A stretch of 54,914 nucleotides of DNA from contig JAUPVS010000004.1 in NCBI GenBank assembly GCA_030916945.1, positions 1-54,914 on the forward strand, given 5' to 3'. The translations under genes were made by a program, and so were the position numbers. Below are positions 8,287 through 34,141 of the stretch, in pieces (position 1 is the stretch's first letter; every line of letters starts with the position of its first letter). Source of the stretch: Patescibacteria group bacterium. GTDB taxonomy: Bacteria > Patescibacteriota > Saccharimonadia > Saccharimonadales > JAUPVS01. The notes under the pieces are model-generated. The model saw only the letters and a list, made by a program, of their open reading frames with translations, searched no databases and had not been told where the DNA came from.

Positions 8287-8361
8287 TGGTAGCGGGGGCA
8301 GGACTCGAACCTGCGACCTCGTGGTTATGAGCCACGCGAGCTGCCACTGCTCCACCCCGCG
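8287..8361 (-). tRNA. tRNA-fMet (initiator, anticodon CAU), CCA encoded
   Basis: Reverse complement: CGCGGGGTGGAGCAGTGGCAGCTCGCGTGGCTCATAACCACGAGGTCGCAGGTTCGAGTCCTGCCCCCGCTACCA. It folds as a cloverleaf with a CTCATAA anticodon loop. The 5' CGCGGGG matches E. coli tRNA-fMet, and the 1:72 pair is mismatched (C:U). Confidence 0.9.
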
Positions 8362-9414: not shown

Positions 9415-9491
9415 GGCGGCGTAGCTCAGTTGGTTAGAGCACAGGACTCATAAGCCTGGGGTCACAAGTTCAAATCTTGTCGCCGCTACCA
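9415..9491 (+). tRNA. tRNA-Met (elongator, anticodon CAU), CCA encoded
   Basis: GGCGGCGTAGCTCAGTTGGTTAGAGCACAGGACTCATAAGCCTGGGGTCACAAGTTCAAATCTTGTCGCCGCTACCA. The D-arm, variable region and T-arm closely resemble E. coli elongator tRNA-Met. An extended -10 (TGgTATATT) lies about 40 nt upstream. Confidence 0.85.
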
Positions 9492-11591: not shown

Positions 11592-11667
11592 GGGGGTGTA
11601 GCTCATCGGTCAGAGCAGGCGGCTCATAACCGCTTGGTAGATGGTTCAACTCCATCCACCCCCACCA
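11592..11667 (+). tRNA. tRNA-Ile2 (anticodon CAU, expected lysidine-modified), CCA encoded
   Basis: GGGGGTGTAGCTCATCGGTCAGAGCAGGCGGCTCATAACCGCTTGGTAGATGGTTCAACTCCATCCACCCCCACCA. The anticodon arm AGAGCAGGCGGCTCATAACCGCTTGGT is nearly identical to E. coli ileX (AGAGCAGGCGACTCATAATCGCTTGGT). Confidence 0.8.
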
Positions 11668-28599: not shown

Positions 28600-30294
28600 A
28601 TGCACGCAGCCACATTCACCGACCTCAGCATTGTCATCGCCATCGGCGTCTTGATTAGCTTATTTATGCGGTTGATCCGCCAGCCAATGATTATCGGCTA
28701 TATATTGACCGGTGTAATCGTTGGTCCAACTGTTTTACGCGTTATCGACACGACCGAAAGTATCGAGGTCTTCTCGCAGTTTGGTATCGCTCTACTGCTA
28801 CTAATTGTCGGTTTAGGGCTAAACCCCCGAGTCATCAAAGAAGTCGGTAAGATTGCCGCCTTGATTGGGATTGGTAAAGTCGTCCTGGCCACAGCTGGCG
28901 GCTATTTGGTCGGTAGAATGTTTGGCTATTCCGATCTGGCATCCTTGTATATTGGTATTTCGCTATCGTTCTCGAGTACGATTATTATCCTTAAGTTACT
29001 CAGTGATAAAAAAGAACAGAACCGGCTATACGGCAAAATCTCGATTGGTTTCTTGTTGGTCGAGGACCTTATCGCCACCTTAGTTCTGATTGCCGTATCG
29101 GCCACCGGTAACGGTGGTTTTACACTGGTAGATTTCTCAAACCTACTTATAAAGAGCATCCTTTTAATTGGCGGCCTAGTAGTGGTACGTGGCCTTATAC
29201 TGCCCCGCCTTAACAAAATTATTGCTAACTCCCAGGAGTTTTTATTCCTGTTTGCCATCGGTTGGGGGCTTGGTATCGCCACCCTGTTTAGTTGGGCTGG
29301 TTTTTCTTTAGAAATTGGCGCCCTAATTGCCGGCGTTACCTTAGCATCGCTACCTTATGCCCAAGAAATCAGCTCACGTCTTAAACCCTTACGCGACTTT
29401 TTTATCATCCTGTTCTTTATATCACTGGGTTCGCACCTAATTCTGGCAGATGTCGTAGACATACTGCCACGGGCCATATTCCTGTCTGTATTGGTGCTGG
29501 TTGGTAACCCGTTAATCGTCATGACCATCATGGGCCTGTCTGGCTATACCAAGAAAACTAGCTTTAAAGCCGGTATTGCGGGTGCTCAAGTAAGCGAATT
29601 TTCCTTCATTATGCTTCTTTTAGCCAACCAACTGGGCCAAGTCAGTACCGAAGTTCTATCACTGATAACTGTCGTAGCACTGATTACTGTAGCGGTTTCT
29701 AGTTACGTAATTATCTACTCCGATCAACTCTACAACTACTTCGAGCGCTACTTAGTAATGTTTGAGCGCAAAAAAGTACGCTCGGAACGTGAACACCGCG
29801 AGCACTACGAGCTAGTCCTGTTTGGTTACCATAAAGGCGGGCGCGAGTTCCTGCATATCTTCGAACAGCTCAACAAGAAACATGTGGTAGTCGACTATGA
29901 CCCCAGTGTTATAGATATCCTAGACGGTAAGCAGACGCCTTACGTGTATGGTGATGTGACAGACATGGAATTACTTTCCGAGATCAACCTGGAGGCTTCT
30001 AAACTGATTGTTTCAGTTATAACCGACTTCCCTACCAACAAATTCCTGGCCCAATGGCTAGCCACTCATAACCCCCGCGCGGTCTTTATTAGCACCGCCG
30101 ACAGCATTGAACAAGCCGCCGAACTGTATGAACTAGGCGTTTCCTATGTCGTCCTACCGCACTTCTTGGGAACCGAGAAGATCGGTACTTTCATCAAGCA
30201 CAGTGGCCTTAAGAAAAGTGAGTTTAAACAGTATCGCGAAAAACACCTGGTTTACTTGCAAACTCACTTTGAAGAGTTTAATCAGTCCGAATAA
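28600..30294 (+). CDS. Monovalent cation:proton antiporter (CPA2/Kef-type) with a C-terminal RCK/TrkA-N domain
   Basis: About 12 TM Na_H_exchanger-like core followed by a Rossmann-like segment (ELVLFGYHKGGREF...VVVDYD). Confidence 0.85.
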   Translation: MHAATFTDLSIVIAIGVLISLFMRLIRQPMIIGYILTGVIVGPTVLRVIDTTESIEVFSQFGIALLLLIVGLGLNPRVIKEVGKIAALIGIGKVVLATAGGYLVGRMFGYSDLASLYIGISLSFSSTIIILKLLSDKKEQNRLYGKISIGFLLVEDLIATLVLIAVSATGNGGFTLVDFSNLLIKSILLIGGLVVVRGLILPRLNKIIANSQEFLFLFAIGWGLGIATLFSWAGFSLEIGALIAGVTLASLPYAQEISSRLKPLRDFFIILFFISLGSHLILADVVDILPRAIFLSVLVLVGNPLIVMTIMGLSGYTKKTSFKAGIAGAQVSEFSFIMLLLANQLGQVSTEVLSLITVVALITVAVSSYVIIYSDQLYNYFERYLVMFERKKVRSEREHREHYELVLFGYHKGGREFLHIFEQLNKKHVVVDYDPSVIDILDGKQTPYVYGDVTDMELLSEINLEASKLIVSVITDFPTNKFLAQWLATHNPRAVFISTADSIEQAAELYELGVSYVVLPHFLGTEKIGTFIKHSGLKKSEFKQYREKHLVYLQTHFEEFNQSE

Positions 30295-30833
30295 AGTTGG
30301 TTGGCGCTAATATATTGGGCGACAGTGTCGGGCACCACGGTTGCCATTTGCGCAGCCGGTAGACTACGAACATTAGATGATGCCAGGTCCGATAAGCCAG
30401 TGGTGACCTGTTGGTGCTCGATTGGTATGGGCGAACTGTCATCACCGTCTCTTTGTCCCACGATAAACTTAACGCGCGAAGCCAGCTGATCAAAGCCTGG
30501 CCATTCATGTAATCTTTTGAACAGATCCGTCCCCATTAGTAGATGGATTTCGGCGTCCTTAAATTTTTCTTCTAGCCAAGGCAGAGTTTCGGCGACCGAG
30601 AATGTCTGATGGTCAAGTTCCAATAATTCTAGATCCTGGTGTTCGCGCAAGGCCAGCCACATCATGTTGAGTCGGTGTCTGATATCAAGGTGTTTGGTTT
30701 TGCGGCGCGGTTGCGGTTCTACTAAAAAGTAGACCTTATCAAGGCCGTGATCATGTTTGGCTTTTTTAGCAAAAGAGATATGCCCGTGGTGGACAGGGTC
30801 AAAAACGCCAGAGTAGATCCCAATTTTTTTCAT
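30282..30833 (-). CDS. nadD: Nicotinate-nucleotide adenylyltransferase
   Basis: GIYSGVFDPVHHGHISFA (the (H/T)xGH nucleotidyltransferase motif) and a length of about 183 aa. It starts 8 nt after the upstream 465-aa gene. Confidence 0.85.
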   Translation of the reverse strand: MKKIGIYSGVFDPVHHGHISFAKKAKHDHGLDKVYFLVEPQPRRKTKHLDIRHRLNMMWLALREHQDLELLELDHQTFSVAETLPWLEEKFKDAEIHLLMGTDLFKRLHEWPGFDQLASRVKFIVGQRDGDDSSPIPIEHQQVTTGLSDLASSNVRSLPAAQMATVVPDTVAQYISANQLYSD

Positions 30834-30841
30834 ACTTATGC

Positions 30842-32239
30842 TTACGCTGCCTTTATTGTACTATCTTCTTTGTCTTTATCGCTAGATTCCGTATCGCGAA
30901 CCTTCAGCATCATTTCTATCAATGATACCTTGGTGGGATCATCACCGTGGTCAAACGCAGCCTGGCACTGCTTGCAGACACTGCAAGGTCCGACTTCGGT
31001 TTTACCGGGTCGGGTAGGACAAGCCTCGACTCGGCAAATGCCCTTCTTCCACTTAATGTCGGCTTCGCCCTTTTCGAGCAACTCGCCTAGTTCATTGACT
31101 TTCAGACCAAGTTCTTTGGCATCCTTAATAGCAATCTCCATGCCGCAAAATACAATCGTCTGCTTCATAAAGCTATGGGCTTCTAGGTAATGGGCGGCTT
31201 GAACATGATCACCCCGCTGCACCATGAGGGCGGCCTCGTTAAACACCGCAACCGCCGCCTTGCCATAGGTAGCTTCGGTGTACTCGGGGTGAAGCAAACA
31301 GACGGCATCGAGGATGCGTTCAATTTCGCCTTCAAATATGGCCGATGATTCAGCCGCCGAGAGTTCGCCAGAATATACTTTACTCTTTAGCTGTTCTTCT
31401 AAATCGGCTAAGCCATCAATGTAACACTCGATATCCTTTTCACGACGGGCCGATTCTTGACGGAGCTGGTCGTAGCCAACATGACGCTTACTAGCTTCCG
31501 GCAGGTCACCGTACAACACGTTGACGCCGGCATACTTATCTAGAGTTCTCTGAATACTAACCACGCCATCAATAAAGTCACGCCGGGTGTGCAAGAAGGG
31601 CGCTTTAAGGGCAGCCACATCTGGGGCTTCGCGCTGATCATATGGGATTTCCTTGTCTTCCAAAAAGCGCAATGTGGTATCTGGGCCACTATTGCTCCGG
31701 CTGACCTGTTCAATAACCCTAGTCAAGGAACCGTCGGCGTTAAAGCGTAAGCCAGTCGAGCGAGCCATGCCTTTGCCATTGCTATATCGATAGCCAATGC
31801 CTTTCATAACGACTACCGGGATATCCGACACAACCGCCACTTCGGTGTCAGCCGGCAAAATACCGCACACTATTGCTTGGTGCGTTTCTTGGACAACTAG
31901 CTCTTCACAGATTTCGGCAAAACGACGCTTCTTTTCGTGCTCCGGCAAATTATCATTCCAGCCATTGAGTAAACGACTCATAACCTGCTGATTAATCTCA
32001 TCTAAGCTGCCTGTAATTTCGACCACCGAAAGATGGCCCGACAACGTCATTGCCTCCATTAGGGCAGTACGGGCATTATCGCGATACTCTGCTCTGTATA
32101 CCGGAACTTCGGGTTGTTCGTTACGCGAATCGATCAATTCCTGGGCACGAGCTTCGATAGCGGCTTGGTCAAGCAAAAAATCGCCGCCAGCGACTGCTTC
32201 GACCGCCCTAACTTCTTCTATTACCCCTGTCTCACCCAT
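30842..32239 (-). CDS. Uncharacterised 465-aa soluble protein with a C-terminal Cys cluster (zinc-ribbon-like), downstream of a cobalamin-riboswitch-like leader
   Basis: Long ORF with no TM and no motif I recognise. C-terminus ICRVEACPTRPGKTEVGPCSVCKQCQ (CxxxC-x12-CxxCxxC). The SD-like GAGG sits inside the leader terminator stem. Confidence 0.75.
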   Translation of the reverse strand: MGETGVIEEVRAVEAVAGGDFLLDQAAIEARAQELIDSRNEQPEVPVYRAEYRDNARTALMEAMTLSGHLSVVEITGSLDEINQQVMSRLLNGWNDNLPEHEKKRRFAEICEELVVQETHQAIVCGILPADTEVAVVSDIPVVVMKGIGYRYSNGKGMARSTGLRFNADGSLTRVIEQVSRSNSGPDTTLRFLEDKEIPYDQREAPDVAALKAPFLHTRRDFIDGVVSIQRTLDKYAGVNVLYGDLPEASKRHVGYDQLRQESARREKDIECYIDGLADLEEQLKSKVYSGELSAAESSAIFEGEIERILDAVCLLHPEYTEATYGKAAVAVFNEAALMVQRGDHVQAAHYLEAHSFMKQTIVFCGMEIAIKDAKELGLKVNELGELLEKGEADIKWKKGICRVEACPTRPGKTEVGPCSVCKQCQAAFDHGDDPTKVSLIEMMLKVRDTESSDKDKEDSTIKAA

Positions 32240-32240
32240 T

Positions 32241-32381
32241 AAAAACCCTCGTTCTGCCGAGCGAGGGGGTGGCTAAAAAGCCTGCGACTCCTGCTCGGGA
32301 GATTTTACTACCGTGTCTGGCTTACAGATATTATCTGCTTACAGTTGCGGCACAGCCTGGGATTCGCACCCAATTCCGGTA
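32241..32381 (-). promoter_or_regulatory. Candidate cobalamin (B12) riboswitch, compact class-II-like aptamer plus terminator/SD-sequestering expression platform
   Basis: Minus-strand RNA: UACCG GAAUUGGGUGCGAAUCCCAGGCUGUGCCGCAACUGUAAGCAGAUAAUAUCUGUAAGCCAGACA CGGUA. From memory, this matches the conserved cobalamin core strings (GGUGnGAAUCC hairpin, CUGUnCCGCAACUGUAAGC, AGCCAG..AC B12-box-like). CCCUCG-N10-CGAGGG-UUUUU follows, ending 2 nt before the AUG. Confidence 0.6.
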
Positions 32382-32449
32382 TGTTGCTTGTGAATGTCTT
32401 AATTTTATCACGTTGAGCTTACGCTACATGTAGTAGAATAGACAGCCCT

Positions 32450-33255: not shown

Positions 33256-33708
33256 CTACTTAGTATAGCGTTTTTTAAGCAAAGTTAAACGGGGTACAAA
33301 GCTTTGGGCGGCGCCTTCTAAACCAAGGACCTTGAGCGAACCAACCAACACATATAGTTGGTCAATTTCGATAGGCTTAAGGCGACTGTTCTGTTCGGCC
33401 TGGGCAAAGTAGTAGTCAACCTTTTCGACCAGCCACTTCTCTTCACCAGGCTTAATCTGATTTGAAGCCACGCTGGTGGTCTTTGGCGTCTGCACGACTT
33501 CTAGCGAGCGGGCTTCGTTGTCGCGTTTCTGTAGGTGACCACGTTTTATCAGGCTATTAACATGCAGAGCCACCGTCGCCACCGAAGTATAGTCCAGGCT
33601 GGTCATGATCTCGCGGTAACTTGGGCTGTAGCCATGTTCGGCAATGAAAGCCTCGATAAAGGATAGTAGTTCTTTCTGTTTTTTGGTGGGACGAGTAGTT
33701 TCAGGCAT
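33256..33708 (-). CDS. LexA-type winged-helix DNA-binding domain protein lacking the S24 peptidase domain
   Basis: From the ATG at 33708: TKKQKELLSFIEAFIAEHGYSPSYREIMTSLDYTSVATVALHVNSLIKRGHL matches a LexA N-terminal domain. The C-terminal ~75 aa have no Ser-Lys peptidase motifs. It overlaps the GtrA stop by 8 nt. Confidence 0.75.
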   Translation of the reverse strand: MPETTRPTKKQKELLSFIEAFIAEHGYSPSYREIMTSLDYTSVATVALHVNSLIKRGHLQKRDNEARSLEVVQTPKTTSVASNQIKPGEEKWLVEKVDYYFAQAEQNSRLKPIEIDQLYVLVGSLKVLGLEGAAQSFVPRLTLLKKRYTK

Positions 33709-34141
33709 GATGTCGAACCCGACGCTCGTTGGGTTTACCCTTAAACACCCAGTTGCGATACCAGAAGTAGTTCCAAACCGTAAAGAAACCGGCCGAGATG
33801 AACTGGCCAATGGCGACGACGATACCGACTTCTTGTAAACTGCGCAAAATCACATAACTCAGCAAGAAGTTAGCCGCCGTGTAGATAACATATTTGCCAG
33901 TCACATAGGTTAGGTTGCGACTCTTGGAGCTTGTAAAGACCCAATAGCGCTCCAGAATAAAGTTCAGCGTTACCCCTACCCCATTACCAATTAAGTTAGC
34001 CCACCAAAGACCTATAACTGGTGTCAGAAATACGATCAGAATATAGGCGCTCCAAAAGTAGGCACCACCGCTAACCAGATATTCGGCAATCCGAACCAAT
34101 TCGAGTCGTTGTTTCTTTTTTAGTTTTGGGGTGTTTGTCAT
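33701..34141 (-). CDS. GtrA-family membrane protein (polyprenyl-phosphate-sugar flippase-like)
   Basis: 4 TM; YLVSGGAYFWSAYILIVFL and LERYWVF, typical of GtrA. Confidence 0.8.
   Translation of the reverse strand: MTNTPKLKKKQRLELVRIAEYLVSGGAYFWSAYILIVFLTPVIGLWWANLIGNGVGVTLNFILERYWVFTSSKSRNLTYVTGKYVIYTAANFLLSYVILRSLQEVGIVVAIGQFISAGFFTVWNYFWYRNWVFKGKPNERRVRHHA

What the first reader, a model, noticed from the sequence alone, without database searches (positions are those of the whole stretch)
32241..32400. Cobalamin-riboswitch-like leader controlling an uncharacterised gene
The element lies on the minus strand between uppP (ends 32450) and the 465-aa ORF (AUG at 32239). The RNA reads UACCG-GAAUUGGGUGCGAAUCCCAGGCUGUGCCGCAACUGUAAGC-AGAUAAUAUCU-GUAAGCCAGACA-CGGUA (about 32381-32309). 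As I recall them, this reproduces the most conserved cobalamin-riboswitch strings. These are the GAA + GGUGnGAAUCC T-loop-like hairpin (UGGG-UGCGAAU-CCCA); CUGUnCCGCAACUGUAAGC, which differs by one base from the consensus CUGUCCCGCAACUGUAAGC and keeps its characteristic U-U; and a B12-box-like AGCCAG..AC running into a closing helix (UACCG/CGGUA). Only a minimal hairpin (CAGAU-AAU-AUCUG) stands where the large peripheral extension sits in classical AdoCbl switches, so the layout is compact and class-II/variant-like. The expression platform is a terminator, CCCUCG-N10-CGAGGG-UUUUU (32267-32241), ending 2 nt before the AUG, and its 3' arm contains the only SD-like GAGG. An alternative pairing, CCGAGCAGGAG (32298-32288) with CCCCCUCGCUCGG (32269-32257), would engage the terminator 5' arm. 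An extended -10 (TGaTAAAAT) lies about 25 nt upstream of the aptamer. B12 riboswitches normally control B12 uptake or synthesis genes, or B12-independent isozymes. Here the target is an unknown protein in a reduced genome that presumably cannot make B12.
Basis: partly seen in the sequence, partly recalled or inferred. Interest (0 to 1): 0.85.

Follow-up and report, generated by a model that had tools for sequence, protein, structure and literature searches.

The report
B12 riboswitch before unknown Saccharibacteria gene
The leader is a genuine, compact vitamin-B12 (cobalamin) riboswitch of a known kind that most likely shuts off transcription when B12 is bound. What makes it worth attention is that in 47 related Saccharibacteria genomes it controls the same soluble protein family, which has no known domain or fold.

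Summary
Confirmed. Window 32381-32241 (minus strand) carries a cobalamin riboswitch. Rfam RF00174 scores 34.4 bits against a threshold of 31.5. The same element sits directly upstream of the orthologous gene in 47 of 48 Saccharibacteria loci, and ten of those leaders independently pass Rfam thresholds for RF01689, RF01482 or RF00174.

It rejects Infernal's local placement of the B12 box.

CUCC-CGAGCA-GGAG (32301-32288) is the conserved P13/L13 kissing-loop hairpin, complementary to L5 UGCCG. Its 3' half also pairs with the 5' arm of the terminator (32267-32241), whose 3' arm holds the Shine-Dalgarno sequence. This is the repressing KL/P13/antiterminator/terminator logic shown experimentally for the P. 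megaterium metE riboswitch.

The RNA is therefore a new member of a known kind (Cbl-II-like). The 465-aa target is soluble and cysteine-rich at its C-terminus. It has no Pfam, NCBIfam, PDB or Foldseek match. In two loci the riboswitch-led unit also holds DUF4430 and DUF6580 genes, which I read as B12 binding/uptake. Its function is still unknown; cytoplasmic B12 handling is my leading inference.

The parts
32421..32435 (-). Conserved upstream motif TACTACATGTAGCGT, with CTAnnnnTAG inverted symmetry, about 14 nt upstream of the extended -10. It may be an operator or an unusual -35/UP region.
   Evidence: It is the only perfect match in the window. The long form occurs at the same distance, about 80 nt before the core, in 23 of 49 leaders; only 28 matches exist in 876 kb searched on both strands.
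32402..32410 (-). Extended -10 promoter element TGATAAAAT.
   Evidence: Read from the sequence. TGnTAnnnT or TAnAcT sits at the same position in most orthologous leaders. The simple sigma-70 scan found no -35/-10 pair.
32388..32394 (-). Conserved leader motif UUCACAA (UUAACAA in most orthologs), 10-25 nt upstream of the closing helix. Probably the 5' end of the transcript.
   Evidence: TTnACA is present in 43 of the 48 leaders listed. It is rejected as a -35 because the matching -10 would fall inside P4.
32309..32381 (-). Cobalamin aptamer. Closing helix 32381-32377/32313-32309; P4 32373-32369/32361-32357 with T-loop-like L4 32368-32362; P5 32354-32353/32347-32346 with L5 UGCCG 32352-32348; P6 base 32344-32342/32319-32317; P6 hairpin 32337-32333/32329-32325; B12-box-like J6/3 AAGCCAGACAC 32323-32313.
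   Evidence: RF00174 at 34.4 bits. Covariation: 92.5-93.4% of cells paired against 31-48% when the partner is slid, and 17-19 pairs with double changes. My own model R1 scores 97 bits, with a single hit in the window.
32288..32301 (-). P13/L13 hairpin CUCC-CGAGCA-GGAG. L13 CG(A)GCA is complementary to L5 UGCCG (kissing loop). Its 3' half doubles as the 5' strand of the antiterminator.
   Evidence: The loop is invariant and the stem covaries: CUUC/GAAG, UUCC/GGAA. Only the bulged third loop base varies, A/G/U. 77 of 117 independent metagenome riboswitches with the same L5 have a CG(N)GCA hairpin loop downstream, against 15.4 expected.
32271..32282 (-). Small spacer hairpin GGCU-UUUU-AGCC between P13 and the terminator.
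   Evidence: Present in both constrained folds and also in the closest ortholog L001. Its role is unknown.
32241..32267 (-). Intrinsic terminator CCCUCG-CUCGGCAGAA-CGAGGG plus UUUUU. The 5' arm and part of the loop (32265-32257) are complementary to P13/L13 and form the antiterminator. The 3' arm contains the Shine-Dalgarno GAGGG, 32250-32246.
   Evidence: Hairpin -11.4 kcal/mol. Antiterminator duplex -15.4 kcal/mol, z = -3.2 against arm shuffles. P13+terminator -22.1 against antiterminator -21.0 kcal/mol. The same layout was found in 43 of the 49 leaders tested.
30842..32239 (-). Regulated gene, here called X465: a 465-aa soluble acidic protein with an alpha/beta N-terminal domain, a helical bundle and a C-terminal Cys cluster (C402, C407, C419, C422, C425).
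   Evidence: No Pfam or NCBIfam hit. 58 close homologs, all unnamed or 'hypothetical', and the only organism names given are Saccharibacteria/Saccharimonadales. 456 representatives found. AF2 pLDDT 81.5, pTM 0.76. No Foldseek match in PDB or BFVD and no PDB sequence match. No hydrophobic segment.
30282..30833 (-). NadD-like nucleotidyltransferase starting 8 nt after the X465 stop. Possibly co-transcribed.
   Evidence: PF01467 and NadD NCBIfam models match, below their cut-offs. It lies directly downstream, on the same strand, in 31 of the 49 sources (48 loci plus the window), but the whole neighbourhood is syntenic.

Best explanation
The 5' leader of the 465-aa gene is a functional cobalamin (corrinoid) riboswitch with a compact, Cbl-II-like aptamer, and it works as an OFF switch.

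Shown by sequence and covariation:
- A four-way junction of closing helix, P4, P5 and P6 with the conserved cobalamin core.
- A P13 hairpin whose loop (CG-A-GCA) is complementary to L5 (UGCCG).
- A G+C hairpin with a U5 run that ends 2 nt before the AUG and contains the Shine-Dalgarno sequence.
- Complementarity between the 3' half of P13/L13 and the 5' arm of the terminator.

Inferred mechanism, by analogy with the mutationally dissected P. megaterium metE riboswitch (PMC10327014):
- With corrinoid bound, the L5-L13 kissing loop locks P13. The terminator then forms, transcription stops at the U run, and any read-through mRNA has its Shine-Dalgarno sequence sequestered.
- Without corrinoid, P13 opens and CCGAGC..GAG pairs with CUC-GCUCGG. 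The terminator cannot form and the Shine-Dalgarno sequence is free.

Inferred biology, less certain (about 0.4-0.5): the regulated protein acts in cytoplasmic B12 handling, for example trapping, processing or adenosylation of imported corrinoid. It is made only when B12 is scarce. In some relatives it lies in the same riboswitch-led unit as a DUF4430 binder-like protein and a DUF6580 membrane protein.
For: RNA identity:
- RF00174 is above its gathering score.
- Ten orthologous leaders pass the gathering scores of RF01689, RF01482 or RF00174.
- The element is present in 47 of 48 loci.

Structure:
- 92.5% of cells are paired against 31-48% when slid; 17 pairs have compensatory changes; 0 of 500 shuffles reach the observed value.
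- The model-based alignment of 51 matches gives the same result.

Kissing loop:
- The five L5/L13 pairs are invariant, and only the bulged base varies.
- Relative to the published consensus L5 UCCCG / L13 CGGGA, the change at L5 position 2 (C to G) is matched by G to C in L13 (PMC10327014).
- CG(N)GCA loops are enriched 5-fold downstream of UGCCG riboswitches in metagenomes.

Expression platform:
- A terminator with a U run abuts the start codon in 43 of 49 leaders.
- P13-to-terminator-arm complementarity has mean z = -2.8, and 31 of 43 leaders have p <= 0.05.
- The two states are near-isoenergetic.
- P13 and the terminator can co-exist, which is the repressing design rather than the activating one.

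Link to B12 biology:
- In L025 and L039 the riboswitch is followed by DUF4430 and DUF6580 and then the X465 gene (in L025 behind a second riboswitch copy); in L116 by DUF4430, DUF6580 and nadD.
- The same riboswitch subtype precedes BtuF-like, CobA/BtuR, PduO, CbiX and NrdD genes in metagenomes.
Against: - The Rfam alignment in the window is only local (model positions 47-167), is close to threshold, and misplaces the B12 box.
- There is no P1/P2 beyond a 5-bp closing helix.
- The kissing-loop pairs never vary within this family, so there is no internal covariation for them.
- Thermodynamic folding slightly favours the terminator even without ligand, so the switch has to be kinetic.
- Nothing shows ligand binding, termination, or which corrinoid form is sensed.
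- For the protein role, there is no homology or fold match to any B12 protein.
- Half of the family (the L036 type) shares only the C-terminal 60 aa in a profile comparison.
- No B12-dependent enzyme could be sought in the source genome.
Confidence: 0.88

Rival explanations
1. The riboswitch call is right, but the 465-aa protein is a B12-independent substitute or bypass for a B12-dependent step. This is the metE/nrdD logic: the gene is repressed when B12 makes the dependent enzyme usable. It would not be a B12-handling protein.
For: OFF-switch logic fits this class equally well. The same riboswitch subtype precedes NrdD in one metagenome locus. The protein has many invariant polar residues, which looks enzyme-like.
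Against: In L025 and L039 it follows DUF4430 and DUF6580 genes in the same riboswitch-led unit (directly co-operonic only in L039), and in L116 it is replaced in the same syntenic slot by that pair. There is no similarity to any known B12-independent isozyme. The N-terminal domain diverges strongly across the family, which is unusual for a core metabolic enzyme.
Confidence: 0.2
2. Control is translational only. The hairpin plus U run serves to sequester the Shine-Dalgarno sequence, as in btuB and env8, and RNA polymerase does not terminate there.
For: The Shine-Dalgarno GAGGG is inside the 3' arm and the AUG is 2 nt after the U run. The U run is only 5 long and the loop is 10 nt, so the standard terminator scan missed it.
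Against: A G+C stem followed by U5-U8 is conserved in 43 of 49 orthologs regardless of stem sequence. That is not needed for Shine-Dalgarno masking alone. The two modes are not exclusive.
Confidence: 0.2
3. The main physiological target is the downstream NadD-like gene or the whole operon, and X465 is a passenger.
For: There is an 8-nt gap between X465 and nadD in the window. nadD follows on the same strand in 31 of 49 sources, and in L116 it follows DUF4430-DUF6580 directly.
Against: The nadD adjacency is part of general Saccharibacteria synteny. Gaps of 100-290 nt occur in several loci, and nadD is absent downstream in about 18 loci that keep the riboswitch and X465. There is no known B12-NAD link.
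Confidence: 0.07
4. The match is a chance or decayed resemblance with no regulatory function.
For: The Rfam score is only 3 bits above threshold and the alignment is local.
Against: Conservation in 47 of 48 loci, compensatory changes in five helices and a conserved antiterminator design.
Confidence: 0.02

Closest known systems
Priestia megaterium metE corrinoid riboswitch (repressing, transcriptional; Kennedy et al. 2023, PMC10327014)
   Same: The L5-L13 kissing loop stabilises P13. [quoted passage not shown] P13 and the terminator can co-exist.
   Different: - Here L5 is UGCCG instead of UCCCG, with a bulged base in L13.
- P13 is only 4 bp.
- The aptamer is Cbl-II-like, without a P2 arm or a long P6 extension.
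- The terminator 3' arm doubles as the Shine-Dalgarno sequence and abuts the AUG.
- The target is an unknown protein, not metE.
env8HyCbl / Rfam RF01689 AdoCbl-II (Cbl-IIa class, PDB 4FRN; as described in PMC7367189)
   Same: Minimal four-way junction, short P6, T-loop-like L4, and a kissing loop with a bulge. Seven orthologous leaders pass the RF01689 threshold.
   Different: env8 is translational, with the ribosome-binding site in P13. Here P13 is 40 nt upstream of the Shine-Dalgarno sequence and acts through a terminator/antiterminator. The window itself scores best on RF00174. Ligand preference is unknown.
Rfam RF00174 Cobalamin (classical Cbl-I, e.g. E. coli btuB)
   Same: Core strings GGAA-GGUGnnAAUCC, GCUG..CCGCAACUGUAA, and an AGCCAG-type B12 box.
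   Different: It lacks P1/P2 and the P7-P11 extension in the window. Some orthologs (L004, L006, L021, L042) carry 100-190-nt P6 insertions, so the peripheral element is variable within one orthologous set.
B12 uptake operons with DUF4430 (transcobalamin beta-domain-like) and S-component-like membrane proteins
   Same: In L025, L039 and L116 the same riboswitch leads DUF4430 + DUF6580.
   Different: The window has neither gene within 55 kb. Only the soluble X465 protein is regulated there.

Membership tests
Cobalamin riboswitch (Rfam clan CL00101) | Covariance-model score at or above the curated gathering score | tested here: met
   RF00174 at 34.4 bits against 31.5, E = 4e-5. The alignment is local, model positions 47-167. 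Orthologs: RF01689 at 38-43 bits, RF01482 at 59 bits, RF00174 full-length at 32-44 bits.
Cobalamin riboswitch (Rfam clan CL00101) | Four-way junction P3-P6 supported by base-pair covariation | tested here: met
   Closing helix, P4, P6 base and P6 distal all have compensatory changes. 92.5-93.4% paired against 31-48% slid.
Cobalamin riboswitch (Rfam clan CL00101) | Conserved core sequences: GGAA, the L4 T-loop string GGUGnnAAUCC, L5 flanked by GCUG..GCAAC, and the B12 box in J6/3 | tested here: met
   All are present. The B12 box is AAGCCAGACAC or AAGUCCGAUAC, a shortened variant. Its register is fixed by the U-A/G-C covariation at 47-87 and by rejection of Infernal's register.
Cobalamin riboswitch (Rfam clan CL00101) | L5-L13 kissing loop with the expression platform | tested here: met
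   There are 5 complementary pairs with one bulge, invariant in 33 leaders. The change is compensatory relative to the published UCCCG/CGGGA consensus. Enrichment is 77 of 117 against 15.4 expected. No covariation exists within the family, so the support is indirect.
Cobalamin riboswitch (Rfam clan CL00101) | Binds a corrinoid and changes structure or expression | not testable with these tools
   Needs in-line probing, ITC or reporter assays.
Cobalamin riboswitch (Rfam clan CL00101) | Regulated genes belong to B12 uptake, synthesis or B12-independent isozymes | tested here: inconclusive
   X465 has no known function. It follows DUF4430/DUF6580 in the riboswitch-led unit of two loci. The same RNA subtype precedes the classic B12 regulon elsewhere.
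Cbl-II subclass (no P2 arm, simple P6 stem-loop; PMC7367189) | Absence of the P2 loop-stem-loop and of the P7-P11 extension | tested here: met
   In the window there is a 5-bp closing helix directly before GGAA and a 5-bp P6 hairpin. Orthologs vary from no P6 hairpin to insertions of about 190 nt.
Cbl-II subclass (no P2 arm, simple P6 stem-loop; PMC7367189) | IIa versus IIb assignment and ligand selectivity (HyCbl/MeCbl versus AdoCbl) | not testable with these tools
   No clear P1 or J1/3 is recognisable in the window. Selectivity must be measured.
Repressing KL/P13/antiterminator/terminator expression platform (P. megaterium metE type) | The 3' side of P13 is complementary to the 5' side of an intrinsic terminator, and P13 and the terminator are compatible | tested here: met
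   Window duplex -15.4 kcal/mol, z = -3.2. Family mean z = -2.8, with 31 of 43 at p <= 0.05. The MFE fold contains both P13 and the terminator.
Repressing KL/P13/antiterminator/terminator expression platform (P. megaterium metE type) | Ligand-dependent transcription termination | not testable with these tools
   Needs in vitro transcription or 3'-end mapping.
Any known protein family, for the 465-aa product | Significant match to a Pfam, NCBIfam, PHROG or PADLOC profile, to a PDB sequence, or to a PDB or BFVD fold | tested here: not met
   Zero families. Best PDB sequence E = 0.23. Best Foldseek E is about 0.1 with TM < 0.15. None of ten divergent relatives has a significant Pfam domain; the only hit, NOD in P0200, is at E = 0.0045 and below its cut-off.

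The most novel reading that the evidence does not exclude
X465 founds a new family, with a new fold, of cytoplasmic corrinoid-handling proteins specific to Saccharibacteria. It could be a trap, chaperone, adenosyltransferase or dealkylase that uses the C-terminal Cys cluster. It would act as the intracellular partner of a DUF4430/DUF6580 uptake route. The riboswitch would then reveal an otherwise invisible B12 economy in these ultra-small epibionts.
Probability: 0.35. Interest if true: 0.8.

Novelty: new member of a known kind. Interest (0 to 1): 0.55.

Why it matters
The RNA itself is ordinary: a Cbl-II-like riboswitch with an expression platform whose logic has already been dissected experimentally.

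The value lies in what it points to. A B12 sensor conserved across 47 Saccharibacteria species-level genomes implies that these reduced-genome epibionts monitor corrinoids, and so presumably use them. It also gives a B12-related functional handle to a large, fast-evolving protein family (456 representatives at 50% identity) that has no domain, structure or name.

That makes two things experimentally testable: how Saccharibacteria acquire or process B12 from their hosts, and what this protein does. The full-text searches I could run found no paper linking cobalamin riboswitches to Saccharibacteria or the candidate phyla radiation.

Tried and rejected
1. My first idea was that CGGCA in the terminator loop (32258-32254) is the L5 partner. 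I rejected it because that loop sequence is not conserved in orthologs, whereas the CUCC-CGAGCA-GGAG hairpin is invariant.
2. Infernal places the B12 box at CGAG-CAGGAGUC and the closing pair at G32377-C32286. I rejected this: 13-127 is paired in 24% of leaders and 47-121 in 14 of 33, with no covariation.
3. I looked for RF01689 and RF01482 scores for the window itself. The tool shows only the best family of a clan, even on a sub-range.
4. Searches for the identity of X465 all came back empty: Pfam on the whole protein and on three sub-ranges, NCBIfam, PHROGs, PADLOC, PDB sequence profile, Foldseek against PDB and BFVD, and Pfam on ten distant relatives.
5. TTnACA upstream of the aptamer is not a -35, because a -10 placed 17 nt downstream would fall inside P4.
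6. The sigma-70 scan found no -35/-10 pair. The terminator scan missed the real terminator because its loop is longer than 8 nt.
7. Literature searches on Saccharibacteria or the candidate phyla radiation together with cobalamin riboswitch, RNR or B12-dependent enzymes returned nothing relevant. A search for DUF6580 returned no papers.
8. There is no DUF4430 or DUF6580 gene and no second riboswitch copy in the 55-kb window. No B12-dependent enzyme was found among ten large window ORFs.
Full report
**Observation.**
A scan of the whole window against Rfam 15 gives one riboswitch hit. It is RF00174 Cobalamin at 32377-32286 (-), 34.4 bits against a gathering score of 31.5, E = 4e-5. The same hit appears in a permissive scan of the region. 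The alignment is local (model positions 47-167 of 189). Most of the score (31.4 bits) comes from the 5' half, GGAA-P4-L5-CUGUAA.

**Comparative evidence.**
- The 465-aa protein ("X465") has 58 close homologs. All are unnamed or "hypothetical", and the only organism names given are Saccharibacteria/Saccharimonadales.
- A scan of one genome per GTDB species found 48 loci encoding relatives, nearly all labelled Saccharibacteria.
- Ten of these loci carry a cobalamin-clan hit at gathering level immediately upstream of the gene. L010, L014, L017, L025, L027 and L033 hit RF01689 AdoCbl-II. L022 hits RF01482. L018, L031 and L036 hit RF00174 over its full length.
- The exact 12-mer CUGUGCCGCAAC (P5/L5) lies upstream on the same strand in 47 of 48 loci. 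The exception, L024, has only 85 nt of upstream DNA.
- A covariance model built from 33 leaders finds one copy in the window (32286-32389, 97 bits) and one per locus, with two in L025.

**Structure.**
On a MAFFT alignment of 33 leaders (A2) I tested a structure with these elements:
- closing helix UACCG/CGGUA;
- P4 (UUGGG/CCCAG);
- P5 (UG/CA);
- P6 base (CUG/CAG);
- P6 distal hairpin (CAGAU/AUCUG);
- a downstream hairpin CUCC/GGAG.

The counts support it:
- 92.5% of cells pair, against 31-48% when the 3' partners are slid by 1-3 columns.
- 17 of 29 pairs show double (compensatory) changes.
- The covariation score is 0.383, against 0.06-0.10 for the slid versions.
- 0 of 500 shuffles reach the observed value.

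The model-derived alignment of 51 matches gives the same picture: 93.4% paired and 19 of 24 pairs with double changes.

One pair is the most telling. U32343-A32318 is U-A in 14 leaders and G-C in 18. Infernal's local alignment instead used CGAG-CAGGAGUC (32298-32286) as the B12 box. In that register the closing pair holds in 24% of leaders and the U/G position pairs in only 14 of 33, with no covariation. I reject it.

The aptamer (32381-32309) has no P2 arm and only a 5-bp P6 hairpin. By the definitions in PMC7367189 it is therefore Cbl-II-like. Orthologs range from no P6 hairpin at all (L010, L017, L033, L043) to insertions of about 190 nt (L004, L021).

The hairpin CUCC-CGAGCA-GGAG (32301-32288) is present in all leaders.
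- Its stem covaries: CUUC/GAAG in L009, L031, L036, L044 and L045, and UUCC/GGAA in L018.
- Its loop is invariant except for the third base, which is A, G or U.
- The loop CG-x-GCA is complementary to L5 UGCCG (32352-32348) with x bulged.

This is the L5-L13 kissing loop common to all cobalamin riboswitch classes (PMC7367189). A bulged kissing loop is known from env8HyCbl (PMC10327014). Against the published consensus (L5 UCCCG, L13 CGGGA), the C-to-G change at L5 position 2 is matched here by G-to-C in L13. That is a compensatory change between families.

As an independent test I scanned metagenome contigs for CTGTGCCGCAACKGT, which returned 120 diverse loci. Of 117 with enough downstream sequence, 77 have a hairpin whose loop is CG(N)GCA or CGGCA. 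Shuffles give 15.4.

**Expression platform.**
- The terminator is CCCUCG-CUCGGCAGAA-CGAGGG (32267-32246, -11.4 kcal/mol) followed by U5 (32245-32241). It ends 2 nt before the AUG.
- Its 3' arm contains the only Shine-Dalgarno sequence, GAGGG, 6 nt from the AUG.
- CCGAGC..GAG of P13/L13 (32298-32288) pairs with CUC-GCUCGG (32265-32257) at -15.4 kcal/mol, z = -3.2 against shuffles of the arm.
- With ViennaRNA, P13 + terminator scores -22.1 kcal/mol and the enforced antiterminator -21.0 kcal/mol. The element is therefore bistable and the choice is kinetic.
- A G+C hairpin with a U run abutting the start codon was found in 43 of 49 leaders. In 31 of the 43, the complementarity between P13 and the terminator arm beats 95% of shuffles, with mean z = -2.8.
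- P13 and the terminator can co-exist, and the 3' side of P13 is complementary to the 5' arm of the terminator rather than identical to it. This is the repressing design demonstrated by mutagenesis for the P. megaterium metE riboswitch. It is not the activating cobT design (PMC10327014).

I therefore infer that corrinoid binding leads to the kissing loop, then a locked P13, then the terminator together with Shine-Dalgarno sequestration, so the gene is switched OFF. This chain is inferred and not shown. Which corrinoid form is sensed cannot be told from sequence.

**Promoter region.**
The simple sigma-70 scan finds no -35.
- About 14 nt further upstream lies TACTACATGTAGCGT (32435-32421). It is the only perfect match in the window. 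It is conserved at the same distance in 23 (long form) to 34 (short form) of 49 leaders. Only 28 long-form matches exist in 876 kb.
- This may be an operator giving a second, protein-mediated layer of control. A LexA_DNA_bind-only protein is encoded two genes upstream in conserved synteny. This idea is untested.

**The regulated gene.**
X465 is soluble and acidic, with no 19-residue window above Kyte-Doolittle 1.6. The invariant residues include many polar ones and a C-terminal cluster, C402-x4-C407-P...C419-x2-C422-x2-C425.

AlphaFold2 with 23 sequences gives a confident model (pLDDT 81.5, pTM 0.76). It has an alpha/beta domain, a helical bundle and a ribbon-like Cys domain.

The identity searches found nothing:
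- Foldseek finds nothing in PDB or BFVD; the best E is about 0.1 and TM is below 0.15.
- Profile searches find nothing in PDB sequences.
- Pfam, NCBIfam, PHROGs and PADLOC give no hit.
- An exhaustive HMM search of 1.84 billion representatives finds 456 relatives. None of ten divergent ones has a significant Pfam domain; one sub-threshold hit (NOD, E = 0.0045) is ignored.

In about 20 of the GTDB loci (L029-L048), tblastn matched only the last 60 or so residues of the query. A profile comparison with one of them, L036, likewise finds only the C-terminal Cys domain in common. These loci occupy the same syntenic slot behind the same riboswitch. L025 and L026 carry a different Cys-rich C-terminus.

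**Context.**
- The neighbourhood LexA-like / UppP / X465 / NadD-like / Na+/H+ antiporter / DsbA / CBS is syntenic across the phylum.
- The NadD-like gene follows X465 on the same strand in 31 of the 49 sources, with a gap of 8 nt in the window. Gaps of 100-290 nt in some loci, and its absence in others, suggest it is not the primary target.
- In L039 the riboswitch is followed by a DUF4430 protein, a DUF6580 membrane protein and then the X465-type gene. The DUF4430 domain is the C-terminal domain of transcobalamins (PMC4350170), and this protein has an N-terminal hydrophobic anchor or signal.
- L025 has the same two genes, followed by a second riboswitch and then X465.
- In metagenome locus L116, which has Saccharibacteria synteny, the DUF4430-DUF6580 pair occupies the slot with no X465.
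- Across the 94 first ORFs behind this riboswitch subtype in metagenomes, Pfam finds the classic B12 regulon: DUF4430 (9), BtuF-type binding proteins (3), transcobalamin-like alpha-toroid/prenyltransferase hits (3), CobA/BtuR, PduO, CbiX, DUF6580 and NrdD.

The soluble X465 is thus embedded in a B12-scarcity regulon. My leading inference is a cytoplasmic corrinoid-handling role (about 0.4). The main rival is a B12-independent bypass function (about 0.2). I could not look for B12-dependent enzymes in the source genome. None was found among ten large ORFs of the window, and no DUF4430 or DUF6580 gene lies within the 55 kb.

**Comparison and novelty.**
The RNA meets every sequence and structure criterion of the cobalamin riboswitch clan that can be tested in silico. 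It works like the P. megaterium metE riboswitch, so it is a new member of a known kind. Its particular features are minor:
- L5 is UGCCG, with a bulged L13.
- P13 is only 4 bp.
- The terminator doubles as the Shine-Dalgarno-sequestering helix directly at the AUG.
- The P6 periphery is highly variable among orthologs.

The interesting part is the conserved, phylum-wide link to a protein family with no known relatives or fold. I found no paper on it in the searchable library.

**Verdict.**
My confidence that this is a functional corrinoid OFF riboswitch is 0.88. I score interest at 0.55. It stays well above routine because of the uncharacterised, conserved target.

Noticed in passing
window 32421-32435 (-): The 15-nt motif TACTACATGTAGCGT, with CTAnnnnTAG symmetry, is unique in the window. 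It is conserved about 80 nt upstream of the riboswitch core in 23-34 of 49 orthologous leaders. It may be an operator or an atypical promoter element, which would suggest a second layer of regulation.
   Followed up: partly
window 32388-32394 (-); same position in L001-L048: The motif UUAACAA/UUCACAA (TTnACA) is conserved 10-25 nt upstream of the closing helix in 43 of the 48 leaders listed. It is probably the start of the transcript. It is not a -35. Its function is unknown.
   Followed up: partly
L025:2473-2603 and L025:3654-3763; L039:1383-2515; L116:606-1753: L025 has two riboswitch copies, one before DUF4430-DUF6580 and one before X465. In L039 a single riboswitch leads DUF4430-DUF6580-X465-nadD. 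In L116 the DUF4430-DUF6580 pair replaces X465 in front of nadD.
   Followed up: partly
L029-L048 (e.g. L036:2696-4342); L025:3683-5581, L026:1371-3080: Proteins in the same riboswitch-controlled slot share only the ~60-aa C-terminal motif WKWKxGxCxVxxCPxxPxxTxVGPCSVCxxCQ with X465 (profile comparison done for L036; the others matched only that region in tblastn) and have a different ~430-aa N-terminal part. L025 and L026 keep the X465 N-terminal part but have another Cys-rich C-terminus (CPICG...CGC...C).
   Followed up: partly
L004, L006, L021, L042 (P6 region); L010, L017, L033, L043: Among orthologous riboswitches the P6 peripheral element ranges from absent to about 190 nt. Different orthologs therefore hit different Rfam families of the clan. 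This is a natural series for studying the role of the P6 extension.
   Followed up: no
window 33256-33810 (-): A protein with only a LexA_DNA_bind winged-helix domain and no S24 peptidase domain detected. It has a TTG start in my ORF list, while gene callers give 150 aa. It lies in conserved synteny two genes upstream of the riboswitch.
   Followed up: no
window 32271-32282 (-): A small hairpin GGCU-UUUU-AGCC lies between P13 and the terminator and is also present in L001. It forms in both switch states in the fold predictions. Its role is unknown.
   Followed up: no
L016:1586-1821 (-): Group I intron hit (RF00028, 96 bits) in a Saccharibacteria MAG contig, about 2 kb upstream of the riboswitch locus.
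   Followed up: no
L029 (DATLCF010000001.1), L021 (DATKKU010000006.1), L011 (JACKGS010000001.1): These contigs are labelled Nevskiaceae, Binatia and Nomurabacteria. They nonetheless carry the riboswitch-X465 unit with neighbouring gene families shared with the other loci (L029 and L011 with several of the syntenic genes, L021 with fewer), so the bins may be mislabelled or mixed.
   Followed up: no
window 8290-8361 (-), 9415-9488 (+), 11592-11664 (+): Three tRNA genes are the only other Rfam hits at gathering level in the window.
   Followed up: no
L095:473-2830 (-): An anaerobic RNR (NrdD, with an ATP-cone) lies directly behind a riboswitch with the same UGCCG L5, on a contig that is not Saccharibacteria-like. 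This is a classic case of a B12-independent isozyme under B12 control.
   Followed up: partly
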